Assembly (NCBI GenBank): GCA_028687915.1
Contig: JAQTZF010000001.1
Coordinates: 216,229-280,228, forward strand
DNA length: 64,000 bases
Direction of reading: 5' to 3'
Origin: Candidatus Daviesbacteria bacterium
GTDB lineage: Bacteria; Patescibacteriota; Microgenomatia; Daviesbacterales; UBA10151
Both the position numbers and the translations under genes were made by a program. Positions within the stretch are counted from its first letter, which is position 1. Each line of letters starts with the position of its first letter. Shown here one piece after another: positions 1-14,634 of this stretch. Below the pieces are notes generated by a model. The model worked only from the letters and a program-made list of their open reading frames with translations, was not told the DNA's origin and did no database searches.

Positions 1-820
1 TATTTTCCCAATTTCTGAACAAACCAGAGATGAATATTATCACCAAGGTCAGAGAATGAAATTCCTGATTAAGGAAATCAGAGAAGGCAGACATGGACCA
101 GAAGTTGTTTTGAGCAGATCTGATGTTAATTTAGTTAAAGGCCTATTTGCTTTAGAAGTACCAGAAGTACAAACAGGTTCTGTAGTTATTAAAGATGTAG
201 CCCGTGAAGCTGGTTCCAGAACCAAGATTTCAGCTGTTTCTACCCAAGAAGGTGTTGATCCAGTTGGTTCTTTAGTTGGTCAAAAAGGAGTTCGGGTTCA
301 GGCTGTTATGAATGAGCTTGGAGAAGAACGAATTGATATTATTTCCTATTCAGAAGATCCTGTTAAATATATTGCTTCAGCTTTGTCACCTGCTAAAGAA
401 GTAACAGTCAGAATCGAAGAAAATGAAGGTGAAAAATTAGCTAAAGTAAAAGTTCCAAATACTCAATTATCATTGGCAATTGGAAAAGGTGGTCAAAATG
501 TAAGATTGGCTGCAAGACTCACAGGCTGGAAAATTGATATTGAAGGTCTGGAAGATTTAAGAGAGCAAAGAGAAGCTGAAGTAGAAAAGTTAAAAGCTGA
601 AAAAGCAGCAGAGCCTAGTGAAGAAGAAAAAGCTGAAAATCGTGAAGAGGTAGTTGAGGCTGTGGAAGAAGAAATTGATAAAGCTGTAGAAGAAGAGTCT
701 TTGGATAATGCAACAGAACCAGAACCAACTGCAGAAGAAGCAGCTCCCGCTGCTGCTCAAGCTGAAAACGATATTGAAGAAGCCGATCAGGCTAAGCCTA
801 AAGAAGAAAAATCAGAATAA
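1..820 (+). CDS. nusA: Transcription termination/antitermination factor NusA, 3' portion (KH1-KH2 domains plus acidic tail). The 5' end lies upstream of the window; frame is open from nt 2.
   Basis: Translation aligns with E. coli NusA from the end of S1 through KH1/KH2 (…EVPEVQTGSVVIKDVAREAGSRTKI…GQKGVRVQAVMNELGEERIDII…IGKGGQNVRLAARLTGW). No in-frame stop upstream of the first Met. Ends with an E/A-rich acidic tail. Confidence 0.85.
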   Translation, partial: IFPISEQTRDEYYHQGQRMKFLIKEIREGRHGPEVVLSRSDVNLVKGLFALEVPEVQTGSVVIKDVAREAGSRTKISAVSTQEGVDPVGSLVGQKGVRVQAVMNELGEERIDIISYSEDPVKYIASALSPAKEVTVRIEENEGEKLAKVKVPNTQLSLAIGKGGQNVRLAARLTGWKIDIEGLEDLREQREAEVEKLKAEKAAEPSEEEKAENREEVVEAVEEEIDKAVEEESLDNATEPEPTAEEAAPAAAQAENDIEEADQAKPKEEKSE

Positions 821-864
821 TGAATAAAGTTTAACTTTTAATTCACATTCTTAATCTTCGAAGG

Positions 865-890
865 GCCGCCTCAAATCAGGCGGTTTTTTA
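865..890 (+). terminator. Rho-independent terminator-like hairpin between nusA and infB
   Basis: CCGCCT/AGGCGG 6-bp stem (866-871 / 878-883), loop CAAATC, followed by TTTTTT (884-889). Confidence 0.5.
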
Positions 891-961
891 TAACTACGAA
901 AGTAGTTACAAGACTCTGACAGTGTAAACTGGCAGAGGAATTATTTTTAAAGGAGAAAAAT

Positions 962-2416
962 ATGTCAGAACAATTAAGACCACCAGTAGTAACAATTTTA
1001 GGCCATGTTGATCATGGAAAAACTACCCTGCTCGATTATATCCGCAAAACCAGAGTAGCAGCTGGAGAACACGGTGGAATTACCCAGGCTATTGGTGCTT
1101 ATCAGGTGGAAGCTGAAGGGAAACTAATTACTTTTATTGATACCCCAGGGCATGCTGCTTTTGAAAAAATGAGATCCAGAGGAGCGGAAGCTGCTGATAT
1201 TTCAGTGCTTGTGGTGGCAGCAGATGATGGAATAATGCCACAAACAATAGAAGCTATTAAACATATCCAAAAAGCACTTACCCCTATGATTGTGGCTGTT
1301 AATAAGGTTGATTTATCAGGACTTGATATTAAAGCCACTGTAGAAAAGATTAAAAGACAACTTTCTGATCAAAAAGTATTGGTGGAAGAATATGGGGGAG
1401 ATGTACCAATTGTACAAATTTCTGCCAAAACAGGGGCAGGTGTGCCTGAACTTTTGGAAACCATTAATTTAGTAGCAGAAATGAATGAATTTAAGAGTGA
1501 TCCAGAAAAACCAGCCACTGGTGTAATTCTGGAAGCTAATTTGGATAAATCCAAAGGGTCTGTAGCTACAGTATTAGTTAGAAACGGATCTTTAAAGAAA
1601 GGTGATGTAATAAAAGCCGGAAATTCCAGTGGAAAAGTTAGGGGAATGTTTAATTTTGCAGGAAAACCTTTAGATGTAGCCCTACCTTCTACTCCGGTTG
1701 AAGTTTTAGGCTTTGAAACAGTGCCAGCAGTAGGTTCACGGGTTAATGAGGCAGAGGAAGAAAAAGAAGAAGCTAAACGTAAGTTTTCCAGCCTTGTTGA
1801 TAAATTAAAAAATAACCAGGAAGAATTATTAACTGTGGTAATTAAAGCTGATAAACAAGGATCAGTAGAAGCTGTCAGAGATATTTTGGAAAAATTAAAT
1901 CTAGAAAAAGAACATTTGAGAATTATTTCAGCTGGAACAGGTGATATTACAGATTCAGATGTGGAAATGGCCCAGGGAGCTAAGGGGATTGTAATTGGAT
2001 TTAATGTGAAAGTAGTACCAACTGCACAAAGAATAGCTGATCAGGAAAGAATCTTAATCAGACTTTATAACATTATTTATGAATTAGCAGATGAGATGGA
2101 AGATGTGGTAGAAACAATGTTAAAGCCAGGAGTGGTGGAAGAAGTTTTTGGCAGGGCTCAAATTATTGCAGAATTTCCTTATGGAAAGGATGAAAAAATT
2201 GCAGGATGTAAAGTGGTTGAAGGAGTAATTTCCAAGGGTCCAAAAATCAGGATTGTTAGAAAAGATGAAGTTGTTTATGAGGGTAAATTAAAATCAATTA
2301 AAAAGGTTAAAGATGAAGTACCAAAAGTAGAAAAAGGAACAGAATGTGGCATGATGTTTGATCCCATCTTTGATTTTCAAATTGGAGACATTATCGAATC
2401 TTTCAGAGTTTACTGA
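962..2416 (+). CDS. infB: Translation initiation factor IF-2, short form (484 aa; GTPase plus domains II/C1/C2 only, no N-terminal region)
   Basis: [13 protein letters not shown]-loop, DTPGH, NKVD motifs. Follows nusA as in the canonical operon. AGGAG Shine-Dalgarno at 949-955. Confidence 0.9.
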   Translation: MSEQLRPPVVTILGHVDHGKTTLLDYIRKTRVAAGEHGGITQAIGAYQVEAEGKLITFIDTPGHAAFEKMRSRGAEAADISVLVVAADDGIMPQTIEAIKHIQKALTPMIVAVNKVDLSGLDIKATVEKIKRQLSDQKVLVEEYGGDVPIVQISAKTGAGVPELLETINLVAEMNEFKSDPEKPATGVILEANLDKSKGSVATVLVRNGSLKKGDVIKAGNSSGKVRGMFNFAGKPLDVALPSTPVEVLGFETVPAVGSRVNEAEEEKEEAKRKFSSLVDKLKNNQEELLTVVIKADKQGSVEAVRDILEKLNLEKEHLRIISAGTGDITDSDVEMAQGAKGIVIGFNVKVVPTAQRIADQERILIRLYNIIYELADEMEDVVETMLKPGVVEEVFGRAQIIAEFPYGKDEKIAGCKVVEGVISKGPKIRIVRKDEVVYEGKLKSIKKVKDEVPKVEKGTECGMMFDPIFDFQIGDIIESFRVY

Positions 2417-2451
2417 ACTTCTAATTCAAAACAAGTAATAAATTTTACTAT

Positions 2452-2709
2452 TTAAGAAAAGCTCTTTACAATATAAACAGCTATTTTGTAACAGGCAGAT
2501 GAGAAATCTGGATTGTTTCCATAGAACATTCTGGCTCTTCTATGAGCAATCATTGCTTCTTTTGTTTTGCCTTGAGCTTCAAATTTATTTGCAAGCCCGC
2601 AATATATTGTTTGTAAAGACCAAGCAGTTGCTTCGGCTGGTGTTAAATCTGCCAAATTTCCATTTGACCGCAGTCCTTCACTGATCTCCATTACTCGTTC
2701 CTTAATCAT
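2452..2709 (-). CDS. Hypothetical small protein (85 aa)
   Basis: Only sizeable ORF in the 375-nt infB-to-NUDIX spacer. No recognisable motifs. Confidence 0.25.
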   Translation of the reverse strand: MIKERVMEISEGLRSNGNLADLTPAEATAWSLQTIYCGLANKFEAQGKTKEAMIAHRRARMFYGNNPDFSSACYKIAVYIVKSFS

Positions 2710-2791
2710 AAGTGACTCGATAGTAAAATATTTATTTCAAAAAGTAAAGAAGGTGCCAGTGTTTTAATTGGTATGTTAGACTAAGTGGGAA

Positions 2792-3265
2792 ATGGGTAAA
2801 TTAAGACAAGCAACTTCATGCTTTTTAATTAAAGATAATAAAGTGCTTTTGGCTATGAAAAAAAGGGGATTTGGGGTTGGGAAATGGAATGGTCCTGGTG
2901 GAAAACCAAATTCTGGTGAGAGTATAGAAGAAACTGCTGTTAGGGAAACCCTGGAAGAGATAGGTGTAACTATTAAGTCTTTTGATAGAGTAGCTACTTT
3001 AGACTTTTTCTTTCCTGCTGATTTAGCAAAAAAGGACTGGAATCAGCAGGTTTGTGTTTATTTGGTAACTGATTGGGAAGGGGAACCAGTAGAAACAGAG
3101 GAGATGAAGCCAGCCTGGTTTAAGTATGAGGAAATTCCTTATAAAGATATGTGGGTAGATGATATTTACTGGCTGCCTCAGGTTTTACAGGGCAAAAAAC
3201 TTAAAGGAACTTTTTCTTTTACTCCTGATGAATCCTTGCAGGATTTTGAAGTAATTGAAATCTAA
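2792..3265 (+). CDS. NUDIX (MutT-like) hydrolase
   Basis: Nudix box GGKPNSGESIEETAVRETLEEIGV (G-x5-E-x7-REUxEExGU). Confidence 0.8.
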   Translation: MGKLRQATSCFLIKDNKVLLAMKKRGFGVGKWNGPGGKPNSGESIEETAVRETLEEIGVTIKSFDRVATLDFFFPADLAKKDWNQQVCVYLVTDWEGEPVETEEMKPAWFKYEEIPYKDMWVDDIYWLPQVLQGKKLKGTFSFTPDESLQDFEVIEI

Positions 3266-3286
3266 AAACTATCCTATAGTTGCTTT

Positions 3287-3856
3287 TTGCCTTGTTTTGT
3301 TCTAAAATATATTACTATGCCAGTTGATATATTAGCTGAAAATCCTATTCTGGAAAAGCAATTGGAAAGCGCTACTCCTCAACGTTTAATGACCCTATAT
3401 AAAAAGTGGTTTAAAGATAATTACCCTGGGCAGGAAATTGACTACAAAATAATAAAAGATTCATTAGATGGTACAATCTCCAAATTTAGATTAAATCCAT
3501 TAGCTGAAAAACACTATTCTGGTTTACGCTATTATCCTGAAATAAGAATTGCTGAAACAGATTTTGGGGCTACAAGGCTTACTGATCTTAGAGGAAAACT
3601 TATGGATAAATTAATAGCTTATCCTGAGCAGGCAATACCTTTTAGCGCGTTATTCAGATGCTGGGAAGGTGATTACAGCGGGGCGTTTAATCTCTTAAAA
3701 GTACATATGTTTTACATGAGAGAAGATTTACGCATTCTCTATGAAAAAGGGGGAGTAGATTTATCTCCTTATCCTATTCCGGTTTCCGTTATGACAGTAG
3801 GATATAAATTATCGAGTGAGTATGATTGGAAAACATTAGATCGACTATCTAGATAA
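3287..3856 (+). CDS. Hypothetical protein (189 aa). True start may be the internal Met at 3317.
   Basis: Intact ORF, same strand and tightly spaced with the NUDIX gene (21 nt). No motif recognised. Confidence 0.5.
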   Translation: MPCFVLKYITMPVDILAENPILEKQLESATPQRLMTLYKKWFKDNYPGQEIDYKIIKDSLDGTISKFRLNPLAEKHYSGLRYYPEIRIAETDFGATRLTDLRGKLMDKLIAYPEQAIPFSALFRCWEGDYSGAFNLLKVHMFYMREDLRILYEKGGVDLSPYPIPVSVMTVGYKLSSEYDWKTLDRLSR

Positions 3857-3904
3857 TTTATTGAACTTGATTATTATGGGTCATTTTGATAAAATCTGCA
3901 GTAC

Positions 3905-4987
3905 ATGAAATACGATACTCAAGTTTCCCAAATCCAACCGGCTATAACTGGAGCACAAAACATTTTAATTGCTATTCCTACTGAAGTTACAATTGACCGT
4001 TTAGCTTCTGGGTTAGCTCTGTATTTATCTTTAAAAACTGCTGGGAAAAATGTATCAATTGTGACAGATGGAGTTTTAACAGTTGGGTTTACTCATCTTT
4101 TTGGAATAGGAAATGTTAAAAATACTTTGCCTCAAAACTCGAGTGGTGATTACACAATTACTTTAGGTAATGTTGTTGCCCCTGATGGGCATATTCCAGC
4201 TTTGCAAAACCTGGATTGGGCACCTGCAGGTAACACTAAATCAGATTTAAAGCTAACCTTTCATGTTAATCCGGGACAAAAATTTGAACCCACTTTTGTA
4301 ACACCTGCACATGAAGGTGGAAACTTTGACCTAATTATTACAATCGGTGCAAATACCTGGTTATCACTTGGCTCTATTTATGCCAACAGTTCCCAAATGT
4401 TTACTAATACTACAATTTTAAATATTGATAACCAGTCAGAAAATACAAATTATGGACAAATAAATTTGGTTGATGGAGAGGCTTCTTTATCTGAGATCAT
4501 TGGTTTATTATTACCAGCCTTAAATTTACCATATGAGGCAGATACTGCCAGTAATATAATTGCAGGGCTTTATGATAAAACTCAAGGTTTGCAAACAGCA
4601 GGAGCTGATACTTATGAGGTTATGGCTCAAGCTTTAAGAGTTGGTGGACAAAAGCCATCCAATAGTTCAAATACTGCTCCAATGTCTGAGCCAGCTGCTC
4701 AGGCAGCTTCTACTACTGGTATGCCTGCATGGGTAGATGCTCCAGCACCGATTCAATCAGAGACATCTACTATCTCAAGTTCATCACAAGGTTTAAATAT
4801 TAGTCCTTTTCTAAATCCACAGAACTTTTCTGTTGATACTACTGCTGCTTCTACACCTCAACCAGAAATACAGCCTCAACCACAACAATCTGCAGAAGAA
4901 GTACCAATGGGTGAGCAAGCACAAACAACTAGTCCGGAAGCTGATTGGCTAACACCAAAGATTTTCAAAAGCAGCAAAATCGGTTAA
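3905..4987 (+). CDS. DHH-family (NrnA/RecJ-like) phosphoesterase-fold protein with substituted catalytic residues, plus an S/T/P/Q-rich low-complexity C-terminal tail
   Basis: Collinear with NrnA: ILIAIPTEVTIDRLASGLALYLSL compares with IILHRHVRPDPDAYGS…. The DHH motif is replaced by NIDNQSE (compare KIDHHPNED), so motifs I-III lack their Asp/His residues. No DHHA1/GGGH domain. Last ~120 aa are low complexity. Confidence 0.6.
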   Translation: MKYDTQVSQIQPAITGAQNILIAIPTEVTIDRLASGLALYLSLKTAGKNVSIVTDGVLTVGFTHLFGIGNVKNTLPQNSSGDYTITLGNVVAPDGHIPALQNLDWAPAGNTKSDLKLTFHVNPGQKFEPTFVTPAHEGGNFDLIITIGANTWLSLGSIYANSSQMFTNTTILNIDNQSENTNYGQINLVDGEASLSEIIGLLLPALNLPYEADTASNIIAGLYDKTQGLQTAGADTYEVMAQALRVGGQKPSNSSNTAPMSEPAAQAASTTGMPAWVDAPAPIQSETSTISSSSQGLNISPFLNPQNFSVDTTAASTPQPEIQPQPQQSAEEVPMGEQAQTTSPEADWLTPKIFKSSKIG

Positions 4988-5004
4988 AATAACTTTAACC
5001 TATA

Positions 5005-5592
5005 ATGAAGTCAAAAGAGATTCCTTCAACTATTCAAGCTCAAGCAGACCGTTTTAAAACACTTTTAACAGCAGTTAATGAAGGGGAAAAGCTCTATATT
5101 GTGGCTGGTTTAGCTAACAGGCCTTTTTATGAACAAGTTGAGGGAGCTATCAGGCATACATATGAGGAAAAAGGGGTGCAAGCCAATATTATTGCAGGAC
5201 CCATTCTATCAGTTGATGAACATGGAGATTCTCCATTATTAAGACTTGCCCGTGGTGATAACCCTTCGGCAATATTATATGCTTCAAGCTTTCGTTCACG
5301 AGAACATTATAGAATAATTGGTAATCAGACAATTCAGGTTGAAAACCGCCATATGCCTTTACAAGAAGATAGAAGAATGATGGAATACAATGATGCATAC
5401 TCCATGGCGATTTATATTAATTATTTTAAAGCCGCTGTTAGCCTTTTTTGTAAAAGATGGTCAAGGGATTATCAGGATCTTTTTATCAGAATTGGGGATA
5501 ATGATATTAAAGAAATACTTTCAGATTTTGATTATGATTTTAAAACAACTAGGGAAATTCGGAATCACCTAGGTCAGGCTTTACTTGATTAA
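5005..5592 (+). CDS. Hypothetical protein (195 aa)
   Basis: Intact ORF 17 nt downstream of the DHH-like gene. No motif recognised. Confidence 0.5.
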   Translation: MKSKEIPSTIQAQADRFKTLLTAVNEGEKLYIVAGLANRPFYEQVEGAIRHTYEEKGVQANIIAGPILSVDEHGDSPLLRLARGDNPSAILYASSFRSREHYRIIGNQTIQVENRHMPLQEDRRMMEYNDAYSMAIYINYFKAAVSLFCKRWSRDYQDLFIRIGDNDIKEILSDFDYDFKTTREIRNHLGQALLD

Positions 5593-5697
5593 AGAAACCA
5601 ATCTATGCCCTTGTAAAGTTTTATAAATTTTGTTAAACTTCGTTAGTACTTAAGGTTTACTTCAGGCACCGAGGTTTACCTTTAGAAAGATAAAAAG

Positions 5698-5967
5698 ATG
5701 CCTTTAGATATAAAATCAAAACAACAAATTATTGAAGAGTTTGCTACCCACAAGGGAGATACTGGTTCTCCAGAAGTTCAAGCAGCATTACTAACCGAAC
5801 AAGTCAAAAATCTTACTGCTCATTTAAAAGAACATCCACATGATATCCATTCCAGAAGAGGATTATTATCCATGGTTAACCGTAGAAGGAGACTCTTACA
5901 ATACTTACTGAAAAAAGATAATGAAAGATACCAAGTCCTAATTGGAAAATTAGGTTTGAGTAAATGA
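5698..5967 (+). CDS. rpsO: 30S ribosomal protein S15
   Basis: 89 aa; …[14 protein letters not shown]…[29 protein letters not shown]… matches S15. Directly upstream of pnp. Confidence 0.92.
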
Positions 5968-6084
5968 GTAAAATAGTGTATAATAGCTTTAGGTGTTCGG
6001 ATTTGAGATTGCAAAGAGAGAATTAGATAATCTAGTTTACTCTTCTACAGTTTCCAATCCACATCTAAAATTAGAAAATTTAAT

Positions 6085-8280
6085 ATGAAACAACAAAAGA
6101 CTATAACCAGGGAACTGGATTTAAATGGCCGTAAACTCACTTTAGAGACTGGCTACCTAGCTCAAGCTGCAGATGCTGCAGTGCTTGCAACATGGGGAGA
6201 AACAGTAATACTCGCTACAGTAGCTGCTAAACCTCTTGCTTCTGATCCTGGATATTTCCCTTTATCAGTTGAATATGTTGAAAAATATTATGCAGGAGGC
6301 AGAATTACCGCTCAAAAGTTTATAAAGCGAGAAACCAGACCACCAGAAGACGCTATCCTTGCAGGTCGTGCAATTGATCGGGCTATTCGTCCTTTATTCC
6401 CACATGATTTTCCTTATGAAGTACAACTTATTGTAAATGTCTTATCCTTTGATGGAGAAAATGATCCTGTTACTTTAGGTTTTATAGCAGCAGCAGCAGC
6501 AGTTTCTTTATCTTCAGTACCTTTTGCAGGACCAATGGGAACTGTTAGAGTAGGGTTAAAAGATGGGGAATTTGTAGTAAACCCAACTTTATCTGAATAT
6601 GATTCTCTTGATTTAAATCTATTAGTAGCAGCCACTAAAGAAAAAGTTGCCATGATTGAAACAGTGGCAGATGAAGTAGAGGATGAATTGGTATTTGATG
6701 GTATTAAAAAAGCTCACACTGAGGCACAAAAAATTGTTAATTTAATTGAAGATTTTGCTAAAGAAGCTGGTAAGACAAAAGTTGTATTTTCCTCTTTAAA
6801 TGAATCTGTAGAAGAAGCAGTAATGAAAGAGGTTAAAACTGAAGTTAAGGCCAAGATTCAGGCTGCCTTATCTGATCCAATAAACCCATGGCATGAGGCT
6901 ACAGGCGATATTATTAAACAAGAATTAGCACTTAAATATGCTGATACATTATCTTCAACTATTTTGCGGGGTATTTTTGATAAAGTTGCTAAGGAATTGA
7001 TGAATGATTTGATCTTAAATCAAGGTAAAAGAGTTGATGGCAGAGCTATGACTGATATTCGTCCAATTGATATTAAAGTTGGACTACTTCCAAGAGCACA
7101 CGGTTCAGCAGTTTTCCAACGTGGTTCTACTCAAGTTTTATCAATTGCAACTGTAGGACCACTTTCTTTATCTCAAACCCTAGAAGGTATGATGGGAGAA
7201 TCAACCAAGAAATTTATGCATCATTACAATATGGGAATTAATCCTTTCTCAGTGGGAGATGTTAAAAGAATTGGTGCTCCAAACAGAAGAGATATTGGTC
7301 ATGGAGCTTTAGTTGAAAAATCATTAGTTAATGTTATTCCTTCTAATGAAGATTTCCCTTATGCAGTCAGAGTAGTATCAGAAGTTTTAGCAGCTAATGC
7401 TTCTACTTCCCAAGCAGCTCTTTGTGCTTCCACTTTGGCTCTTATGAATGCTGGTGTTAAGATTAAAAATCCTGTGGCTGGTATTGCCTTAGGTTTATTA
7501 TCCAATGAAGAAAAATTCCAGGTAATTACTGATATGCAGGCTGTAGAAGACTTTTATGGTCAGATGGATTTTAAAGTTGCCGGAACTGTTAAGGGTGTAA
7601 CAGCAATCCAAATGGATACTAAACTACATGGTTTATCTTTTGAAATTATTGAAGAAGCTTTGAAGCAAGGTAAAGCTGCCAGACTCGTTATCATAGAAGA
7701 AATTAATAAAGCTATTCCAGAGGTTGGACCAATGTCCAAATATGCACCAAAGATTGAGATTACTCACATTAAACCAGAAAGTATTGGAGCTTTAATTGGA
7801 CCAGGTGGTAAAAATATTAATGCTATTATTGCCAGAACTGGTGCTCAAATTGATATTGAAGATGATGGAATGGTGATGGTTTCTTCAACAGATGATGAAG
7901 CAATTAGAAAAGCAATTTCTGAAATTGATGGAATGTTTAAAGAAGTTGCTGTTGGTGAAGTTTATGAAGGTAAAGTAGTAAAACTAGCTACTTTTGGAGC
8001 ATTTGTTGAAATCTTACCTGGTCGCGACGGATTGGTTCATGTTTCTCAAATGGCACCAGAACGAGTGGAAAATCCAGCAGATATTGTTTCTGAAGGTCAA
8101 ACAGTTAAGGTCAGAGTAACTGATGTTGATCCATCTGGTAAAATTGGTTTATCAATGTTATTCGGAGAACAAATAAAGCCAGATAGTGAACGAAGACCAA
8201 GTGGCGGTGGAAATAGACGTGATTTTGGTGGTCAGAGACGTGAGTTTGGTAATAATTCTTCTGATAGACGTCGAAGATAA
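6085..8280 (+). CDS. pnp: Polynucleotide phosphorylase (PNPase) with a C-terminal RGG-rich tail
   Basis: Two RNase PH-like domains, KH (IGALIGPGGKNINAI) and S1 (GEVYEGKVVKLATFGAFVEI) domains. rpsO-pnp synteny. Confidence 0.95.
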   Translation: MKQQKTITRELDLNGRKLTLETGYLAQAADAAVLATWGETVILATVAAKPLASDPGYFPLSVEYVEKYYAGGRITAQKFIKRETRPPEDAILAGRAIDRAIRPLFPHDFPYEVQLIVNVLSFDGENDPVTLGFIAAAAAVSLSSVPFAGPMGTVRVGLKDGEFVVNPTLSEYDSLDLNLLVAATKEKVAMIETVADEVEDELVFDGIKKAHTEAQKIVNLIEDFAKEAGKTKVVFSSLNESVEEAVMKEVKTEVKAKIQAALSDPINPWHEATGDIIKQELALKYADTLSSTILRGIFDKVAKELMNDLILNQGKRVDGRAMTDIRPIDIKVGLLPRAHGSAVFQRGSTQVLSIATVGPLSLSQTLEGMMGESTKKFMHHYNMGINPFSVGDVKRIGAPNRRDIGHGALVEKSLVNVIPSNEDFPYAVRVVSEVLAANASTSQAALCASTLALMNAGVKIKNPVAGIALGLLSNEEKFQVITDMQAVEDFYGQMDFKVAGTVKGVTAIQMDTKLHGLSFEIIEEALKQGKAARLVIIEEINKAIPEVGPMSKYAPKIEITHIKPESIGALIGPGGKNINAIIARTGAQIDIEDDGMVMVSSTDDEAIRKAISEIDGMFKEVAVGEVYEGKVVKLATFGAFVEILPGRDGLVHVSQMAPERVENPADIVSEGQTVKVRVTDVDPSGKIGLSMLFGEQIKPDSERRPSGGGNRRDFGGQRREFGNNSSDRRRR

Positions 8281-8288
8281 AAATTTTT

Positions 8289-8987
8289 ATGTTGAAGGGG
8301 TTTTTCTCCAAAGAAAAAATTATACTTGGAACCTTAATCTTGGTTCTTTTAAGTCTTATCTCTTTTATATTTTTTCGTTTTCAGTTAACAGAAAATGGTT
8401 TGGTATCAGCCAAAGGGTTGTATGCCGGTATGCAGAGGAGTTTAAGTCCGTCGCAGGCATATATCACTCTGGATAAAGATAATCTAAAAATTGTATTTAA
8501 AATTACTAACGCTGATAAACAAGTATTTGCAGAATTTTTAAAAAGTGTTGGAATTAAAAATTTTGAGGAACAGGAAATAAACATTAAATTTGCTGATCAG
8601 AACGGAGAAGAGTTGAATAAAATATTGCGTAAAAATAATTTAATTTCAGATGAAACCACAAAAGTTAGTTTAAATTTAAAGATTTTGACTAAAGAAATAG
8701 ACTTTGATAATAAAAAAGTATTTGGACCATTTGATTCTGTAGCAGAAAATTTATTGGAAAATCCAAGTGATGCAGGCAGTATTAGAACTGAAGCCTTAGG
8801 GGGATCTGGCTATTTGGTGGAAATTGATAATCCGGAAAAAGTTTTAACAGAAGGAACTTTATCTGGTAAATTAAAATTATCAGAAAACTTAGTAGATTCT
8901 GGATGGTGGCAAGTTGTGACTAAATTAGCTAAAATTAATTTGAAGATACAAGATGGTGTGCTTACAGGTGCATTTATCTTAAAATAA
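8289..8987 (+). CDS. Hypothetical protein with an N-terminal transmembrane anchor
   Basis: Hydrophobic segment ILGTLILVLLSLISFIFF near the N-terminus. No known motif. Confidence 0.5.
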   Translation: MLKGFFSKEKIILGTLILVLLSLISFIFFRFQLTENGLVSAKGLYAGMQRSLSPSQAYITLDKDNLKIVFKITNADKQVFAEFLKSVGIKNFEEQEINIKFADQNGEELNKILRKNNLISDETTKVSLNLKILTKEIDFDNKKVFGPFDSVAENLLENPSDAGSIRTEALGGSGYLVEIDNPEKVLTEGTLSGKLKLSENLVDSGWWQVVTKLAKINLKIQDGVLTGAFILK

Positions 8988-8989
8988 TT

Positions 8990-10033
8990 ATGGATCAAAC
9001 TGCCCAACCAAACGATAATTTCTCCAAACTAAGACAGAAAATTAAAGACAATAATTTACCAGCAAATTTAGTTGAAAAACTAAATGATGAGCTGGACCGT
9101 CTGCAAAAAATGGTAGCAGCAACAGGTTATAAGTTTGAGTTTGATAAAGTGTTTGAGTATATAAATTTTGTGGCCTCATTACCTTTTAATAATTCCAGCC
9201 AGGATATTTTGGATTTAAAACGAACAGAAGCAATGTTAAATGAAAATCATTATGGCTTGAATATAGTCAAAGAAAGAATTTTAGAATATATGTCAATTTT
9301 AATATTAAATGCCAATAAAGGAGAAAAACTTCGTTCTCCTATATTATCTTTTGTAGGGTTAGTTGGATCAGGTAAAACATCAATTGCTTATTCTATAGCA
9401 GAAAGCATGGGACGAAAAATTATCAGAATTCCTTTTGGAGGACTAAGTTCTGTGACAGATTTAAGAGGTCAATCAAGAGTTAACGCGGATGCGGAACCAG
9501 GGTTATTAATGAAATCAATTATGAGAGAAGGTGTAAATAATCCTGTAATATTATTGGATGAAATAGACCGAGTAGCCACAGAATCACGAGCAGATTTAAT
9601 GGGGGTTTTGGTGGAGCTTTTGGATCCTAATCAAAACTTTGCCTTTATTGATAAATATGTGGATTTTCCATTTGATTTATCAAAAGCTTTATTTATAGCC
9701 ACAGCCAATAATACAGGTAATATTGCTACAGCAGTACTTGACAGAATGGAAATGATTGAGATGCCAGGCTATTCTGACGAAGAAAAAATTGTTATTGCTA
9801 AGAAATACTTAATGCCAAAGATTATAAAATCAGCAGGATTACCAGACAATACAATAATAATTGATGAAGCGTTATGGCCCCAGATTGTTAGGCCTTTAGG
9901 GTTTGACGCCGGAATCAGGTCATTGCAACGTAATATCGAGACTATTGTTCGTAAAGTTGCTAAACAAGTAGTAGAGGGTAATGCGGGCCCCTATAGCTTA
10001 ACAGCGGAAAATGTAGGAAAATATATAGGTTAA
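8990..10033 (+). CDS. Lon-like AAA+ ATPase module (helical linker plus AAA+ domain) with no LON N-terminal domain and no S16 peptidase domain
   Basis: Collinear with E. coli Lon residues ~250-585: HYGL..VKERILEY, Walker A GLVGSGKTS (Lon GPPGVGKTS), Walker B VILLDEIDRV, sensor-1 ATANN, and …GIRSLQRNIETIVRKVAKQ compares with AGVRGLEREISKLCRKAVKQ. ORF ends at the point where the Lon protease domain would begin. The stop overlaps the rnj start. Confidence 0.7.
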   Translation: MDQTAQPNDNFSKLRQKIKDNNLPANLVEKLNDELDRLQKMVAATGYKFEFDKVFEYINFVASLPFNNSSQDILDLKRTEAMLNENHYGLNIVKERILEYMSILILNANKGEKLRSPILSFVGLVGSGKTSIAYSIAESMGRKIIRIPFGGLSSVTDLRGQSRVNADAEPGLLMKSIMREGVNNPVILLDEIDRVATESRADLMGVLVELLDPNQNFAFIDKYVDFPFDLSKALFIATANNTGNIATAVLDRMEMIEMPGYSDEEKIVIAKKYLMPKIIKSAGLPDNTIIIDEALWPQIVRPLGFDAGIRSLQRNIETIVRKVAKQVVEGNAGPYSLTAENVGKYIG

Positions 10034-11736
10034 TGAAATCATTTTTACCAAATTTTAAATCTAATCAAGGACAAGTAATCCAACATCAGGGACTTAGAAT
10101 CATCCCCTTAGGTGGGGTTGGTGACGTGACCAAAAATATGTATATCTATGAGTATGGCCGTGACATTATCATCATTGATTGTGGTGTTGGTTTTCCGGAC
10201 GAAGCTATGTTGGGAGTAGATTTGGTTATTCCGGATATTTCCTATTTAAAGGATAAAGTTGACCGAATTAAGGCAATTATTATTACTCATCCACATGATG
10301 ACCATATTGGAGGATTAGTATATATCTGGCCAGAACTAAAGTGTCCAATTTATGCGACCAAGTTAGCAGTTGGTTTTATTAAAAATAAATTTAATGAAGC
10401 TAAATTACCAAAAGATCCAATTCATATAATTGATCCGGAAAACAAATTAAACTTGGGAGCTTTTGGAATATCATTTTATCGGGTCTCACATTCTGTGCCA
10501 GATTCAGTGGGAATTGTCATTGATACTCCTGGTTCAAGAGTCATTCACCAATCAGATTTTAAATTAGACTGGACTCCAATTATTGGTAAACCAACGGAAA
10601 TTGCAAAAATTGCCAGGTTTAGTGAAGATGGCATTGATTTATTGCTTATTGATGCATTGGGATCAGAAAAGAAAGGCTACAATGAGCCAGAGATAAATAT
10701 TTTACCAACATTCAAAAAGATTGAAGAGGAAACTGAGGGGAAAATATTATTAACCACAGCAAGTTCCAATATCAGTCGTATTCAGATGGCAATTAATGTA
10801 GCAAGTGATGCAGGACGAAAAGTAGCTTTGGTGGGTCGTTCTATGGAAAGTAATTTTCAAGTTGCCAGAGACCTTGGTTATTTACATATTCCACCAGGCA
10901 TAATTATTGCTCAGGAAGAGGTTAAAAGGTTTCCTGATAATAAATTATTATTAATCATTGCAGGTTCTCAGGGTCAACCAGGTTCAGCTTTGTCCAGGGT
11001 TGCTAATAATGATCATAAACATGTATTTCTTAAAAAAGATGATACAGTTATCTTTTCTGCCGATCCAATTCCCTCAACAGAAACTGCTCAACATGCCTTG
11101 ATTGATAAATTAGCCAAAATGGGAGTAGATGTCAGGTATAAAGAAATGGAAGATGCTTTGCATGTTTCTGGACATGAAACAGCAGAAGAAATTAAGATGA
11201 TGATCAATATAATCAGGCCAAAAGCTTTGGTTCCAATTGGGGCAACTTATCGGGGAATGATAGCTTTTTCTAAATTGGCAAAAGATTTGGGCTATACTGA
11301 AAAACAAATTCTTTTAGCTGAGGATGGGCAAATTATTAACCTTGTTTCAGGTGTCTCTCGTCTTGAGGGTAGAATTGATGTTCGAAATATTTATGTTGAT
11401 GGATTAGGGATAGGAGATGTGGGAAATGTTATATTAAGGGACAGAAAAGTGATGTCTGAGGAGGGAATAGTATTGGTAATTGTTCCTGTGGATAGTCATA
11501 CTAGCCAATTAGTAGGAGAGCCTGATATAGTAACTCGTGGGTTTGTTTTTGAAAGAGAAGCAGAAGAAATGCTGTCAAAAGCACGAAGTGTAGTCAGATC
11601 ATGTTTGGCAGATCATCCTAATGCTATTTTAGATTGGAGATTTACCAGAAGCCATATTGAAGAAAATTTGGATAAATTCTTCTTTGAGGAGTTGCATCGC
11701 AGACCCATGATTCTACCATTAATTGTAGAAGTCTAA
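10033..11736 (+). CDS. rnj: Ribonuclease J (beta-CASP metallo-beta-lactamase RNase)
   Basis: HPHDDHIGG (HxHxDH) motif, beta-CASP architecture, 567 aa. Confidence 0.85.
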   Translation: MKSFLPNFKSNQGQVIQHQGLRIIPLGGVGDVTKNMYIYEYGRDIIIIDCGVGFPDEAMLGVDLVIPDISYLKDKVDRIKAIIITHPHDDHIGGLVYIWPELKCPIYATKLAVGFIKNKFNEAKLPKDPIHIIDPENKLNLGAFGISFYRVSHSVPDSVGIVIDTPGSRVIHQSDFKLDWTPIIGKPTEIAKIARFSEDGIDLLLIDALGSEKKGYNEPEINILPTFKKIEEETEGKILLTTASSNISRIQMAINVASDAGRKVALVGRSMESNFQVARDLGYLHIPPGIIIAQEEVKRFPDNKLLLIIAGSQGQPGSALSRVANNDHKHVFLKKDDTVIFSADPIPSTETAQHALIDKLAKMGVDVRYKEMEDALHVSGHETAEEIKMMINIIRPKALVPIGATYRGMIAFSKLAKDLGYTEKQILLAEDGQIINLVSGVSRLEGRIDVRNIYVDGLGIGDVGNVILRDRKVMSEEGIVLVIVPVDSHTSQLVGEPDIVTRGFVFEREAEEMLSKARSVVRSCLADHPNAILDWRFTRSHIEENLDKFFFEELHRRPMILPLIVEV

Positions 11737-11779
11737 TAATCCTATAGTATATTAGGATATGTTATAATAAGGAGGTAAT

Positions 11780-13900
11780 ATGTCTAGACGTCGTTCAATG
11801 TATTCTTTGCCAAAACTAAAACTAAAACCAAAAACGATTATTACTATTGGAACAGTTATTGCATTCATTTTTGCAATTATTTCCGGAGTGTCTTTATTTA
11901 CTGAAACTGCAAAACTATTATTTTGGAGAGAGTTTTTATACGGAAACTTAGGTTGGACATCTTATTTTTCACCATTTATCTTTTTAATTTCTGGATTGGT
12001 TCTACAACGATTTAAGTGGCAATATGCCCAGCCAAATGTCTTGTTAGGCCTTATTACAATTATTATTTCACTATCTGCTTTAACTGCTTCTTTTTTCTCT
12101 GATGGTGCAGGTGATTTGGGTAATTTAATTTGGAATGAGTTGGCTGGAATATTAACAGGGTTTGGTGCAGCAGGAGTATTACTTGGAATTTTAATAGTGG
12201 GATTAATAGTATTTTTTAATACTTCTGCTTCTCAGGTTTTAGAAATAGTGACTGCAATTTATAAGTTTATTCAGGGAAATATTTTTAGTCCCATATTTGG
12301 CAGATTTTTTGGACCAAGTTTAGCTGAGCCAAGGAAAATATCAATTAAAGTATCTGGTATGCAAGAGACACCAAAAGTTGCTGTTGCGCCACAAAAAGAA
12401 ACAGCTATTATGGCAGATGAACTTGTTCAGAACGTGGCTGGTCAAACTAAAATCTGGAAATATCCACCAATTAGTTTACTCTCTGATAAAGTGGGAGCGC
12501 CAGCAGACCGGGGCGATGTAAAGAAAAATGCTTCAACAATTGAAAAAACTTTGGATGCTTTTGGGGTATTGGCTGAGGTAGCAGAAGTTAATGGTGGCCC
12601 ATCAGTTACTCAGTATGCTTTAAAAATATCTTCGGGCACAAAAATTGCCAAGATTACCAACTTACAACATGATTTGGCCATGGCTTTGGCAGCCAGAACC
12701 GGAACTGTCCGGGTTGAAGCTCCAATTCCAGGAAAATCATTGGTGGGAATTGAAGTACCAAATAAAACATTAGAAGTTGTAGGTTTAAAAACTATTTTAG
12801 CCTCAGATGATATGCAAAAACAAAAAAGCAAATTGGCAATAGCTTTGGGAAGAGATACCTCTTCTAAAGAAATAATTGTTGATTTAGCTAAAATGCCTCA
12901 CTGTCTAGTTGCTGGTACTACTGGTTCTGGAAAATCCATCATGTTAAATGCACTTATTGCGTCCTTGCTTTATCGAAACTCTCCGGAGGAATTAAAACTT
13001 ATTTTAGTTGATCCAAAAAGGGTAGAGATGTCTAACTACAATGGCATTCCTCATTTATTAACTCCGGTTATCAATGAACCAGAAAAGATTTTATCGGCTT
13101 TAAAATGGACTATGGCAGAGATGGATAGACGTTATAAAACATTTCAAGCAGTGGGAGTTAGAAATATACAAGGCTACAATGAGATGTCAGGTTTTCAGGC
13201 ACTTCCATATATTGTAGTGGTAATTGATGAGTTGGCAGACTTAATGCTTTTTGCTCCGGTTGAGGTGGAAGATGCTATTACCCGTTTAGCACAATTATCC
13301 CGAGCCACAGGTATTCATTTAGTAATTGCCACACAGCGTCCATCTGTTGATGTTATAACTGGTTTAATTAAAGCTAATATTCCTTGTCGGGTTGCTTTTA
13401 CAGTTTCCTCCATGGTTGATTCACGGGTTATTCTTGATTCTCCAGGAGCAGAAAAATTACTGGGGCGTGGAGACATGTTGTTTTTACCGCCTGATGCTTC
13501 CAAGCCAATGCGTATTCAGGGAGTTTTTGTGTCTGATGCTGAACTAAACAGTTTAATTGACTTTTTGAAATCCACTGGTGTGGCTCCACAATATACTACT
13601 GAAATTACAGAAATGCCTATTGGTAGGGTTGGTGGTAAATCAGGAGGTAGTTCAGGTGGTGCTGATGATCGGGACGAGCTCTTTGATGAAGCTATTAAAA
13701 CAGTTTGCCAATATGACCGGGCTTCAGCATCGTTATTACAGCGAAGGCTTAGAGTAGGCTATGCCAGAGCTGCCAGAATGATTGATGAGCTGGAAGCAGC
13801 AGGAATTGTAGGGGCTGGAGAAGGTTCAAAACCTCGAGACGTGTTAGTCAGAAATGCAGATGAATACTTTGCTCAAAAGAATAACCCTACTGAAAGTTAA
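11780..13900 (+). CDS. ftsK: DNA translocase FtsK/SpoIIIE
   Basis: N-terminal transmembrane helices, GTTGSGKS Walker A, VVIDELADLM Walker B, C-terminal winged-helix gamma domain (…LLQRRLRVGYARAARMIDELE…). Strong Shine-Dalgarno AAGGAGG at 11768-11774. Confidence 0.9.
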   Translation: MSRRRSMYSLPKLKLKPKTIITIGTVIAFIFAIISGVSLFTETAKLLFWREFLYGNLGWTSYFSPFIFLISGLVLQRFKWQYAQPNVLLGLITIIISLSALTASFFSDGAGDLGNLIWNELAGILTGFGAAGVLLGILIVGLIVFFNTSASQVLEIVTAIYKFIQGNIFSPIFGRFFGPSLAEPRKISIKVSGMQETPKVAVAPQKETAIMADELVQNVAGQTKIWKYPPISLLSDKVGAPADRGDVKKNASTIEKTLDAFGVLAEVAEVNGGPSVTQYALKISSGTKIAKITNLQHDLAMALAARTGTVRVEAPIPGKSLVGIEVPNKTLEVVGLKTILASDDMQKQKSKLAIALGRDTSSKEIIVDLAKMPHCLVAGTTGSGKSIMLNALIASLLYRNSPEELKLILVDPKRVEMSNYNGIPHLLTPVINEPEKILSALKWTMAEMDRRYKTFQAVGVRNIQGYNEMSGFQALPYIVVVIDELADLMLFAPVEVEDAITRLAQLSRATGIHLVIATQRPSVDVITGLIKANIPCRVAFTVSSMVDSRVILDSPGAEKLLGRGDMLFLPPDASKPMRIQGVFVSDAELNSLIDFLKSTGVAPQYTTEITEMPIGRVGGKSGGSSGGADDRDELFDEAIKTVCQYDRASASLLQRRLRVGYARAARMIDELEAAGIVGAGEGSKPRDVLVRNADEYFAQKNNPTES

Positions 13901-14634
13901 GTTGTAGGTTGGGATGAGGTAAGAAAGTCTGAGGCTTTGGGAGAATTTTCCATTGAATCATTATTTATTTCTTCTTTTGAATCCTCAAAATCTGCTAAAT
14001 CTTCTGTTTGATAATTAGTATTTTCTTCAGGTTTTGATTCACTCATAGTTTCCTGAATTGGTTCTTCTTCTGTTTTGGTGTTTGAACTTAAATTACCCAG
14101 TAATTCATCAATTGGACTCATAACAGCAGCAAAACGCTTGGCTTCTTCTTTCTTTTTTATTCTTTCGATTGATGCATCAGAAGCTTCTTTAAAATCTTCA
14201 AATTGTGGCTCTGTAAGGTGAGTATAGGCTAAGATAACTTTATTAACACAACTCTGTCCTTGAGTTTCAATTTGTTTAATATTATTAAAAAGCATGATAT
14301 AAAAGTCTTGCCCGGTATCTGGTTGCTTGCTATGATTAATTTCTACTTCATAATCTCCTAAATCCATGCGGTAGTGATCTTCTATGGAAGCAACTTCAAA
14401 TTTATTTAAATCAGTATGGCTAACAGGCAATTTATCCTGATTTATTAAATCTATTAATTGATTTAAGTATTTTTCTGATTTTTCTCCATCTCCTGCAGGA
14501 GGAGGTGGCTCTTGTGGCATTTCCTGAGGCTGTTGTATGGGTTCCTCTGGCAGATCTATAGTATTTGAATTAGTAGTTGGTGCAGTATCGTCGAGCATTC
14601 CTCTTATATTAGAGAAGGTTGGAACACCAGTCAA
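13897..14634 (-). CDS. Hypothetical acidic protein (245 aa, D/E/P/Q/T-rich termini)
   Basis: Intact ORF convergent with ftsK, overlapping it by 4 nt. No transmembrane segment, no motif recognised. Confidence 0.45.
   Translation of the reverse strand: MTGVPTFSNIRGMLDDTAPTTNSNTIDLPEEPIQQPQEMPQEPPPPAGDGEKSEKYLNQLIDLINQDKLPVSHTDLNKFEVASIEDHYRMDLGDYEVEINHSKQPDTGQDFYIMLFNNIKQIETQGQSCVNKVILAYTHLTEPQFEDFKEASDASIERIKKKEEAKRFAAVMSPIDELLGNLSSNTKTEEEPIQETMSESKPEENTNYQTEDLADFEDSKEEINNDSMENSPKASDFLTSSQPTT

What the first reader, a model, noticed from the sequence alone, without database searches (positions are those of the whole stretch)
3905..4987. Catalytically dead DHH-family (NrnA-like) protein with a disordered tail
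Sequence order and spacing follow nanoRNase NrnA, but every catalytic motif is substituted: DHH becomes DNQ and the motif I/II Asp/His residues are lost. The DHHA1 substrate-binding domain is replaced by a ~120-aa S/T/P/Q-rich tail. This is a pseudo-enzyme retained in an operon with a NUDIX hydrolase, and may be a scaffold or nucleotide-binding regulator.
Basis: partly seen in the sequence, partly recalled or inferred. Interest (0 to 1): 0.5.

Follow-up and report, generated by a model that had tools for sequence, protein, structure and literature searches.

The report
Dead nanoRNase with conserved tail peptide
This gene encodes a relative of the small-RNA-degrading enzyme NrnA that has lost its catalytic residues and its second domain, and instead carries a floppy tail ending in a 17-residue peptide conserved across a whole group of ultra-small bacteria, so it probably acts as a tethering adaptor rather than an enzyme.

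Summary

- **C-terminal peptide.** The last 17 residues (PEADWLTPKIFKSSKIG) are the most conserved part of the protein. W, P and K are about 100% conserved in 244 homologues, and the peptide sits at a fixed distance from the stop codon.
- **Large family.** It has over 1,700 clusters at 50% identity. All named members are Microgenomates (CPR bacteria), and every aligned member has lost catalytic residues.
- **Conserved gene order.** The order is nusA-infB-X-rpsO-pnp-LonAAA-rnj-ftsK, with X starting a median of 11 nt after infB. The NUDIX neighbour is a local insertion, seen in one other locus of 131.

Best reading: a pseudo-enzyme derived from the infB-linked NrnA' clade. Its fold is a structural module, and its tail presents a short linear motif to a conserved partner in translation or RNA decay.

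The partner is unknown. A fused-chain AlphaFold test with IF2 was negative, and PNPase was not tested. This is a new variant of a known kind and moderately interesting.

The parts
3905..4987 (+). Whole ORF, 360 aa plus stop: DHH-like pseudo-enzyme with a disordered tail and a C-terminal peptide
   Evidence: ORF list. It is 100% identical to a hypothetical protein of a Candidatus Daviesbacteria MAG.
3905..4654 (+). DHH-fold domain, residues 1-250
3977..3997 (+). Degenerate motif I, residues 25-31 (PTEVTID). His becomes P25, the first Asp becomes T29, and the second Asp (D31) is kept.
   Evidence: Alignments to 4ls9 and TM1595. Column counts: P in 100/139, D31 in 137/139.
4133..4303 (+). Insertion of about 55 aa of beta structure, residues 77-133, absent from solved NrnA structures
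   Evidence: The profile-to-PDB match splits into two stretches around it. Four strands are modelled at pLDDT 84-94. It is as conserved as the rest of the domain.
4328..4348 (+). Degenerate motif II, residues 142-148 (DLIITIG). The catalytic Asp becomes G148.
   Evidence: Aligned to D80 of TM1595. G in 119/139. The TM1595 D80N D154N double mutant is deposited as inactive (titles).
4427..4435 (+). Degenerate motif III, D175-N176-Q177 in place of DHH
   Evidence: Column counts: the first His column shows no His among its listed residues; the second His column has His in 19/139.
4565..4582 (+). Degenerate motif IV, residues 221-226 (GLYDKT). The catalytic Asp becomes K225 here and Ala in most of the family.
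   Evidence: Aligned to D154 of TM1595. A in 84/139.
4655..4933 (+). Disordered low-complexity linker, residues 251-343. It has two islands conserved only within Daviesbacteria: residues 296-309 (GLNISPFLNPQNFS) and 329-337 (SAEEVPMGE).
   Evidence: pLDDT 50-66 and no secondary structure. Composition. Mean column conservation 0.20 against about 0.5 in the domain. Islands seen in A2.
4934..4984 (+). C-terminal short linear motif, residues 344-360 (PEADWLTPKIFKSSKIG)
   Evidence: Present at the C-terminus of 216/260 retrieved homologues. Logo from 244 sequences: D 94%, W 100%, L 92%, P 100%, K 99%, I/V 100%, F/Y 100%; 81% end exactly 12 residues after the W. It is the most conserved segment, 0.66. 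It occurs once per locus.
962..2416 (+). infB (minimal IF2, 484 aa), the conserved upstream neighbour of the family
   Evidence: ORF. Synteny in 131 loci. Gap from the infB stop to the homologue's start has a median of 11 nt, n=109.
5698..8280 (+). rpsO and pnp, the conserved downstream neighbours

Best explanation
The gene encodes a non-catalytic descendant of the infB-linked NrnA' nanoRNase clade. It has three parts:
- **Folded domain.** A DHH domain that has lost the His and Asp residues needed for two-metal phosphoester hydrolysis, and all of the substrate-binding DHHA1 domain. It probably serves only as a structural module, possibly a dimerising one.
- **Linker.** About 90 aa that are disordered and poor in charged residues.
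- **C-terminal peptide.** P-x-[PA]-D-W-L-x-P-K-[IV]-[FY]-K-G-x4-COOH.

The protein most likely works as a tethered adaptor. The flexible tail presents the peptide to a pocket on a highly conserved partner. This links the DHH module, or a second copy of the tail if the protein dimerises, to that partner.

**Shown here:** the fold, the loss of catalytic residues, the absence of DHHA1, the disorder of the tail, the extreme conservation and terminal position of the peptide, and the fixed gene order.

**Inferred:** the lack of enzyme activity, dimerisation, and that the peptide is a protein-docking motif.

**Not identified:** the partner. My ranking is:
- PNPase or another RNA-decay component of the same gene cluster, about 0.25.
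- The ribosome or small subunit, about 0.2.
- IF2, about 0.15 after a negative model.
- Something else, the remainder.
For: **Fold and homology:**

**Loss of catalysis is ancient and universal in the family.**
- 0/139 members keep more than 5 of 8 catalytic positions, and 94/139 keep two.
- The positions matching D80 and D154 of TM1595 are Gly and Lys/Ala. The D80N D154N double mutant of TM1595 is deposited as inactive.

**No DHHA1:** there is no Pfam hit, and the model has no structure after residue 250.

**The family is under selection.**
- 1,783 representatives at E<=1e-3 and 571 at E<=1e-10.
- One copy per locus in 131 loci.

**The peptide is the most conserved segment.**
- Conservation is 0.66, against 0.45-0.51 in the domain and 0.20 in the linker.
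- The W-P-K core is near-invariant and the distance to the stop is fixed.
- The linker meanwhile varies from about 50 to 337 aa. This is the signature of a short linear motif on an entropic tether.
- In the native model the peptide is not docked onto its own domain (pLDDT 61-66), so a partner in trans is likely.

**Ancestry.**
- The best matches are TM1595 and the mycobacterial NrnA', whose clade is defined by infB/rbfA/nusA neighbours (PMC4081065).
- An intact DHH+DHHA1 relative, P0116, also abuts infB.

**Precedents for terminal peptides on disordered tails.**
- RNase E recruits PNPase through C-terminal peptides: GWW in Caulobacter (PMC3376730) and residues 1005-1061 in E. coli (PMC2723993, PMC12489471).
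- The dimeric archaeal stalk protein aP1 recruits aEF2, aEF1A and aIF5B (PMC5887453).
Against: - There is no experimental data on any member, and no paper describing the family turned up.
- The partner is unknown. The only candidate I could model, IF2 fused to the tail, left the peptide at pLDDT 26-34.
- D31, D175, D213 and N217 remain invariant or nearly so. Some metal or ligand binding at the old active site is therefore not excluded.
- In NrnA' about half of the dimer interface comes from the linker and the first DHHA1 helix (PMC4081065). These are missing here, so dimerisation is uncertain.
- Tight spacing after infB may simply reflect a compact genome. Other gene pairs in this window are equally tight.
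Confidence: 0.65

Rival explanations
1. PNPase tether. The C-terminal peptide docks on PNPase, which is encoded two genes downstream. This would make the protein an organiser or regulator of an RNA-decay assembly, a role inherited from an ancestral pairing of a nanoRNase with the enzyme that produces nanoRNA.
For: - pnp lies two genes downstream in about 95% of loci long enough to show it.
- Three independent lineages recruit PNPase with peptides at the extreme C-terminus of a disordered region.
- The extended PNPase-binding region of E. coli RNase E contains SDWQRPTF, loosely like PDWLxPKI.
- All 76 PNPase orthologues here carry an unusual Arg/Gly-rich tail.
Against: - It was not tested.
- The resemblance to SDWQRPTF is short, and the tryptophan is not reported as a contact in the paper.
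- Six loci keep infB next to the gene but have no rpsO-pnp downstream.
- The motif profile matches no PDB chain.
Confidence: 0.25
2. IF2 or ribosome accessory. The tail recruits or is recruited by IF2 or the small subunit. It would act like a stalk-type tether, or would supply in trans the N-terminal appendage that this minimal IF2 lacks.
For: - The gene starts a median of 11 nt after the infB stop: 66/109 loci within 25 nt, 17 overlapping.
- The adjacency survives where rpsO-pnp has moved away.
- IF2 here is a 484-aa minimal form, whereas the lineage with an intact NrnA-like enzyme has a full-length IF2.
- aIF5B binds the C-terminal peptide of a dimeric, flexible stalk protein.
- rbfA and truB are absent from the cluster.
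Against: - The fused-chain AlphaFold model of IF2 plus tail gave well-folded IF2 (pLDDT 80-90) but left the peptide at 26-34 with no structure.
- Tight spacing is common throughout this genome.
- The adjacency to infB is inherited from NrnA' and need not mean binding.
Confidence: 0.3
3. FtsZ-tail mimic or membrane anchor. The peptide resembles the FtsZ C-terminal peptide (linker, then D-[IV]-P-x-[FIY]-[LMY]-[RK], then a few variable residues). It would bind FtsA or SepF, or insert into the membrane as a short amphipathic segment.
For: - The architecture is the same as FtsZ: globular domain, variable disordered linker, a conserved peptide of about 10 aa, and a short variable end.
- P-K-I-[FY]-K resembles the P-x-Phi-Phi-[RK] of FtsZ tails. 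This comparison rests on my own knowledge of E. coli, B. subtilis and T. maritima FtsZ.
- ftsK lies in the same cluster.
Against: - No FtsZ or FtsA sequence from these genomes was available for comparison.
- Near-100% conservation of W, P and K is far higher than is usual for membrane-targeting helices.
- No functional link between division and an NrnA relative is known.
Confidence: 0.1
4. Still an enzyme or ligand sensor. The remaining D31, D175 and nearby Asn residues bind one metal or a nucleotide. The protein would hydrolyse or sense a small molecule, as the first reader suggested ('nucleotide-binding regulator').
For: D31 (137/139), D175 (120/139), N173, N187, D213 and N217 (139/139) are conserved.
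Against: - The first His of the DHH motif is absent in the aligned members, and the motif II and IV Asp residues are gone in most.
- The DHHA1 domain, which holds the substrate in NrnA-type enzymes, is missing.
- N173, N180, G184 and N187 are also conserved in active enzymes, so they look like fold elements (alignment).
Confidence: 0.1
5. C-terminal degron. The terminal peptide plus the long unstructured tail make the protein a substrate or adaptor of an AAA+ unfoldase, for example the protease-less Lon-like ATPase conserved in the same cluster.
For: - The peptide sits at a fixed distance from the C-terminus (81%).
- The long disordered region would suit initiation of unfolding.
- The Lon-like AAA gene is conserved three genes downstream.
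Against: Purely circumstantial. Degrons are rarely this conserved over such divergence, and it was not tested.
Confidence: 0.07

Closest known systems
NrnA' clade of nanoRNases (M. tuberculosis Rv2837c/CnpB, M. smegmatis MSMEG_2630)
   Different: No DHHA1 domain and no GGGH. Six of eight catalytic positions are replaced. There is an extra beta insertion of about 55 aa, and a 110-aa disordered tail with a conserved terminal peptide. rbfA is absent from the operon.
T. maritima TM1595 (pApA phosphodiesterase, DHH/DHHA1)
   Different: TM1595 is an active two-domain enzyme, and its D80N D154N variant is inactive. The window protein has Gly and Lys at those two positions and lacks the second domain.
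Cdc45 and archaeal RecJ-Cdc45 (non-catalytic DHH-fold scaffolds of the replicative helicase)
   Same: A DHH-superfamily protein that gave up catalysis and serves as a structural or adaptor subunit.
RNase E C-terminal scaffold with PNPase-binding peptides (E. coli 1005-1061; Caulobacter GWW; cyanobacterial Arg-rich nonapeptide)
   Same: A long disordered region punctuated by short conserved motifs, with the partner-binding one at the extreme C-terminus, in an RNA-metabolism context.
   Different: It is attached to an active endonuclease. The sequences are unrelated and the linker is rich in Arg and Glu. Binding to PNPase is shown for RNase E and not for this protein.
Archaeal ribosomal stalk protein aP1
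   Same: A small folded (dimeric) domain, a flexible acidic hinge, and a conserved hydrophobic C-terminal peptide that recruits translational GTPases, including the IF2 homologue aIF5B.
   Different: No homology. aP1 is a ribosomal protein anchored on P0. A fused-chain model with IF2 gave no docking here.
FtsZ C-terminal linker and C-terminal peptide
   Same: The same layout of variable disordered linker, a conserved peptide of about 10 aa and a short variable end, with a shared P-x-Phi-Phi-[KR] core.
   Different: Different folded domain and gene context. The invariant D-W-L ahead of the Pro is not an FtsZ feature. The comparison rests on my recollection of FtsZ tails and was not tested.

Membership tests
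DHH superfamily (Pfam PF01368 fold) | Significant sequence-profile match to the DHH domain | tested here: met
   The target alone misses Pfam. However, the family profile hits solved DHH enzymes at 3.8e-22 to 1e-8, and members P0113 and P0105 score 50.2 and 44.6 bits against a cut-off of 28.1.
DHH superfamily (Pfam PF01368 fold) | DHH-domain three-dimensional fold | tested here: met
DHH superfamily (Pfam PF01368 fold) | Motifs I-IV (DxD, D, DHH, D) that bind two metal ions | tested here: not met
   The target reads P..T.D / G / DNQ / K. In the family, 0/139 keep more than 5 of 8 positions.
NrnA / NrnA' nanoRNase | Two-domain DHH + DHHA1 architecture with a GGGH substrate-binding motif | tested here: not met
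   No DHHA1 hit. Residues 251-360 are disordered. There is no GGGH in the sequence. The related protein P0116 has both domains.
NrnA / NrnA' nanoRNase | Gene neighbourhood with infB and nusA (defines NrnA' in PMC4081065) | tested here: met
   The order nusA-infB-gene is seen in essentially all of 131 loci. Literature definition.
NrnA / NrnA' nanoRNase | Hydrolysis of 2-5 nt RNA, pAp or dinucleotides | not testable with these tools
   Needs enzyme assays. The sequence predicts no activity.
Pseudo-enzyme (non-catalytic homologue kept by selection) | Homologous to an enzyme family, catalytic residues lost, and conserved across many species | tested here: met
   homology; loss; 1,783 representatives; 124 confirmed loci fetched in two collection scans; one copy per locus.
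Short linear motif on a disordered tether (as in RNase E CTD, FtsZ tail, stalk proteins) | Disordered region of variable length and sequence | tested here: met
   pLDDT 50-66 with no secondary structure. 50% S/T/P/Q. Column conservation 0.20. Linker length about 50-337 aa.
Short linear motif on a disordered tether (as in RNase E CTD, FtsZ tail, stalk proteins) | Short island of strong conservation inside or at the end of the disordered region | tested here: met
   W 100%, P 100%, K 99%, D 94%, L 92% in 244 sequences. It is the most conserved segment of the protein.
Short linear motif on a disordered tether (as in RNase E CTD, FtsZ tail, stalk proteins) | The motif binds a defined partner | tested here: inconclusive
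   Only IF2 was modelled (fused chain; motif pLDDT 26-34), which is negative but weak. Other partners were not tested. There is no PDB counterpart of the motif.

The most novel reading that the evidence does not exclude
The protein is the organising hub of an RNA-processing assembly peculiar to Microgenomates. In this reading a dead nanoRNase has been re-used as a (dimeric) scaffold. Its disordered tails capture PNPase, and perhaps RNase J or the Lon-like ATPase encoded beside it, through the DWLxPKI[FY]KG peptide. [quoted passage not shown]
Probability: 0.15. Interest if true: 0.75.

Novelty: new variant of a known kind. Interest (0 to 1): 0.55.

Why it matters
CPR bacteria make up a large share of bacterial diversity, yet most of their conserved proteins have no known role. 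This family appears in every locus of the conserved nusA-infB-rpsO-pnp cluster that I fetched, all from Microgenomates where named. Its most conserved feature is a 17-residue terminal peptide rather than an active site.

That gives a concrete handle: one peptide, three near-invariant residues, and a short list of candidate partners. With it one can ask how translation initiation and RNA turnover are organised in cells with minimal genomes.

It is also a clean bacterial example of a nuclease turned into a non-catalytic adaptor, comparable in kind to Cdc45 in eukaryotes.

If the partner turns out to be PNPase or the ribosome, it would be a fourth independent way of tethering RNA-decay or translation factors through a terminal peptide.

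Tried and rejected
**Searches that found nothing**
- Direct Pfam, NCBIfam and PHROG scans of the target gave no hit.
- The tail peptide alone and a motif profile (A7) found nothing in PDB sequences at E<=10.
- Full-text searches for a dead DHH protein in CPR, or for an NrnA-degradosome interaction, returned nothing relevant.
- A second look-up of cluster names gave no taxonomy.

**The motif elsewhere**
- I looked for the same motif in other proteins of the window and of 51 related loci. It occurs only at the C-terminus of this family.

- The search for related loci with the broad alignment A1 failed because no stretch was conserved enough. I re-ran it with A2 and A3.
- The afdb50 fold library was unavailable.

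**Partner modelling**
- A mixed alignment placed the tail rows in the middle of IF2 and was discarded (A4).
- The accepted job used IF2 plus the tail with 120 IF2 homologues as the alignment. It showed no docking. This used the last prediction job, so PNPase could not be modelled.

**Ideas I could not test or dropped**
- The FtsZ-mimic idea could not be tested. There is no FtsZ in the window or the loci.
- The weak resemblance of the motif to the bL9 N-terminal 'NFLxPKG' segment is too short to mean anything, and that segment is part of a folded core. I dropped it. It was a thought only, with no tool test.
- 'Relic pseudogene' is rejected, because the family is large, single-copy, syntenic and conserved.

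**Negative results with caveats**
This is a low-sensitivity negative.
- The promoter and terminator scan was uninformative: promoter-like sites were at background and there were no terminators.
Full report
**What is at the coordinates**

The window comes from a Candidatus Daviesbacteria genome (CPR, Microgenomates). The 360-aa product of ORF 3905-4987 is identical to a hypothetical protein of such a MAG. Locally the genes run as follows:
- nusA, 56-820
- infB, 962-2416
- a small minus-strand ORF
- a NUDIX gene, 2792-3265
- an unknown 189-aa ORF
- the target
- an unknown 195-aa ORF
- rpsO
- pnp
- a 232-aa ORF
- a Lon-like AAA gene
- rnj
- ftsK

**The fold is DHH of the NrnA type**

Curated libraries do not recognise the protein. 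A single-sequence search of PDB sequences gives only weak hits to NrnA-type proteins (E=0.004-0.009).

The family is large. A full HMMER scan found 1,783 cluster representatives at E<=1e-3, and a word-indexed search found 163 proteins. A profile of 139 members (A1) matches these solved structures:

| Structure | E-value |
|---|---|
| TM1595 | 3.8e-22 |
| Rv2837c / mycobacterial NrnA | 1.5e-19 |
| S. aureus NrnA | 1.7e-16 |
| B. subtilis NrnA | 4e-9 |
| GdpP | 3e-8 |

The profile match breaks into two stretches. Between them lies a four-stranded insertion of about 55 aa (residues 77-133) that solved NrnA proteins lack. It is as conserved as the rest of the domain.

**The catalytic apparatus is gone, family-wide**

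Aligned to TM1595 and M. smegmatis NrnA, with family column counts:

| Motif | Canonical residue | Window protein | Family (of 139) |
|---|---|---|---|
| I | His | P25 | P in 100 |
| I | first Asp | T29 | S/T/N in most |
| I | second Asp | D31 (kept) | D in 137 |
| II | Asp | G148 | G in 119 |
| III | Asp | D175 (kept) | D in 120 |
| III | first His | N176 | no His listed |
| III | second His | Q177 | His in 19 |
| IV | Asp | K225 | A in 84 |

No member keeps more than five of the eight positions, and 94 keep only the two Asp residues. The TM1595 D80N D154N variant is deposited as inactive, and the window protein has Gly and Lys at those two positions.

There is no DHHA1 domain and no GGGH motif. 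Loss of nanoRNase-type catalysis is therefore a strong inference.

**The tail**

Residues 251-360 are 50% S/T/P/Q and 18% hydrophobic. They are modelled without secondary structure at pLDDT 50-66.

The tail is not featureless. Of 260 retrieved homologues, 216 end in W-[LIVM]-x-P-[KR]-[LIVM]-[FYW] a few residues before the stop. Most of the others are fragments. The logo from 244 sequences is:

| Position relative to W | Residues |
|---|---|
| -4 | P 73% |
| -2 | P or A |
| -1 | D 94% |
| 0 | W 100% |
| +1 | L 92% |
| +2 | T, K or V |
| +3 | P 100% |
| +4 | K 99% |
| +5 | I or V |
| +6 | F or Y |
| +7 | K 84% |
| +8 | G 82% |

In 81% of sequences the protein ends exactly 12 residues after the W.

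By region, mean conservation is:

| Region | Residues | Mean conservation |
|---|---|---|
| Domain, before the insertion | 1-76 | 0.49 |
| Beta insertion | 77-133 | 0.45 |
| Domain, after the insertion | 134-250 | 0.51 |
| Linker | 251-343 | 0.20 |
| C-terminal peptide | 344-360 | 0.66 |

Linker length varies from about 50 to 337 aa, and some long linkers carry repeats. Within Daviesbacteria there are two further small islands, G.DLS..F..P and PS.EE.P.GE.

The peptide occurs once per locus and in no neighbouring gene. Neither the peptide nor its profile matches any PDB chain.

**Genomic context**

Two collection scans fetched 124 confirmed loci, and seven more came from exact look-ups. tblastn with the window's proteins shows the order nusA-infB-gene-rpsO-pnp-LonAAA-rnj-ftsK wherever the contig is long enough.
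- The gene starts a median of 11 nt after the infB stop. In 66 of 109 loci the gap is 25 nt or less, and in 17 the genes overlap.
- rpsO follows after a median of 107 nt.
- The NUDIX gene is shared only with the 82%-identical relative L008.
- The two flanking unknown ORFs are unique to the window.
- Six loci keep nusA-infB-gene but have other genes downstream.
- No rbfA or truB homologue is detectable in the cluster. This is a low-sensitivity test.

Named members belong to Daviesbacteria, Levybacteria, Chisholmbacteria and Beckwithbacteria. UniRef calls them 'DDH domain-containing protein'. I found no paper describing them.

**Ancestry**

Srivastav et al. (PMC4081065) split nanoRNases into two clades. 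They named the one with infB, rbfA and nusA neighbours NrnA', and showed co-transcription with infB and rbfA in M. smegmatis. The window protein's best matches are in that group. An intact DHH+DHHA1 relative that also has the beta insertion (P0116) lies directly upstream of a full-length infB. The simplest history is an NrnA'-type enzyme that lost DHHA1 and catalysis and gained a tail.

**How it most likely works**

The protein combines a folded domain without an active site, a variable disordered spacer, and a near-invariant terminal peptide that does not dock on its own domain in the model. This is the pattern of a tethered short linear motif.

Known examples include:
- RNase E, whose extreme C-terminus recruits PNPase in three different ways (PMC2723993, PMC3376730, PMC12489471).
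- The archaeal stalk protein aP1, a dimer whose C-terminal peptide recruits aEF2, aEF1A and aIF5B (PMC5887453).
- The FtsZ tail (from my own knowledge).

I therefore read the protein as a non-catalytic adaptor. Whether it dimerises is open. In MSMEG_2630 the interface uses the last DHH helix, which is present here, together with the linker and first DHHA1 helix, which are absent.

**The partner is unresolved**

I tested IF2, the gene's most constant neighbour. The test used a fused chain of IF2 (1-484) plus the tail (251-360), with 120 IF2 homologues as the alignment. IF2 folded at pLDDT 80-90, but the whole tail, peptide included, stayed at 26-34 with no structure.

This lowers the IF2 idea but does not kill it. 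The tail had no alignment, a monomer network was used, and only pLDDT could be read.

In passing, all 76 PNPase orthologues in these loci carry an Arg/Gly-rich C-terminal tail.

**Verdict**

This is a new variant of a known kind: a pseudo-enzyme derived from NrnA', equipped with a linear-motif tether, and found in every fetched locus of the conserved cluster in Microgenomates. Interest is moderate, and would be higher if the partner proves to be PNPase or the ribosome.

Noticed in passing
window 6085-8280 (pnp), last ~45 codons; same in 76 related loci: PNPase ends in an Arg/Gly-rich basic disordered tail (...RRPSGGGNRRDFGGQRREFGNNSSDRRRR). Every PNPase orthologue in the related loci has such a tail, often ending FDR.RRR[FY] or GRGGFNR. 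This is an RGG-like RNA-binding or condensate-type feature, and I know of no such tail on E. coli PNPase.
   Followed up: partly
window 8990-10033: A 347-aa Lon-like AAA+ module (Pfam AAA + Lon_lid) with no protease domain and no Lon N-domain. It is conserved between pnp and rnj in nearly all related loci.
   Followed up: partly
window 3287-3856 and 5005-5592: Two ORFs (189 and 195 aa) flank the target. They have no significant Pfam, NCBIfam or PHROG match (nothing below E=0.05) and no tblastn match in any of 131 related loci, so they are insertions private to this genome. The 189-aa ORF has a faint Trans_reg_C hit (E=0.05).
   Followed up: partly
window 2792-3265: A MutT-like NUDIX hydrolase (Pfam 1.3e-19) is inserted between infB and the target. 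It is shared only with the closest relative, L008, so it is not a conserved partner.
   Followed up: yes
window 962-2416; L005 1522-2694: IF2 in this lineage is a minimal 484-aa form that starts at the G domain. In L005 an intact DHH+DHHA1 NrnA-like gene (P0116) lies directly upstream of a full-length IF2 with an N-terminal IF2_N-like region.
   Followed up: partly
window 1-14000 and 131 related loci: No rbfA or truB homologue is detectable in the nusA-infB-rpsO-pnp cluster, where most bacteria have them.
   Followed up: partly
L007 8001-9113 (P0112); P0114: There are other CPR DHH-family proteins with degenerate motifs ('DDQ', 'DHK') that keep a DHHA1-length C-terminal region and lack the tail peptide. 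P0112 (L007) lies in an unrelated context, near polA, tsaE and ruvB; the context of P0114 was not looked up. Loss of DHH catalysis seems to have happened more than once in CPR.
   Followed up: no
P0079, P0086, P0093, P0099 (homologues of 550-600 aa): Long-tailed family members carry several copies of an 'AVSDQPSA[NT]PAPQ'-like unit in the linker. The terminal peptide is unchanged.
   Followed up: no
L009, L012, L014, L020 and other loci: Many public record titles call these contigs 'uncultured Gammaproteobacteria'. Their gene order and protein similarity are those of Microgenomates, so the bins are probably mislabelled.
   Followed up: no
window 56-820 (nusA), C-terminal ~80 codons: NusA ends in a strongly acidic, Glu-rich low-complexity tail. 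Several proteins of this cluster therefore carry charged disordered tails: NusA acidic, PNPase basic, and the target neutral to acidic.
   Followed up: no
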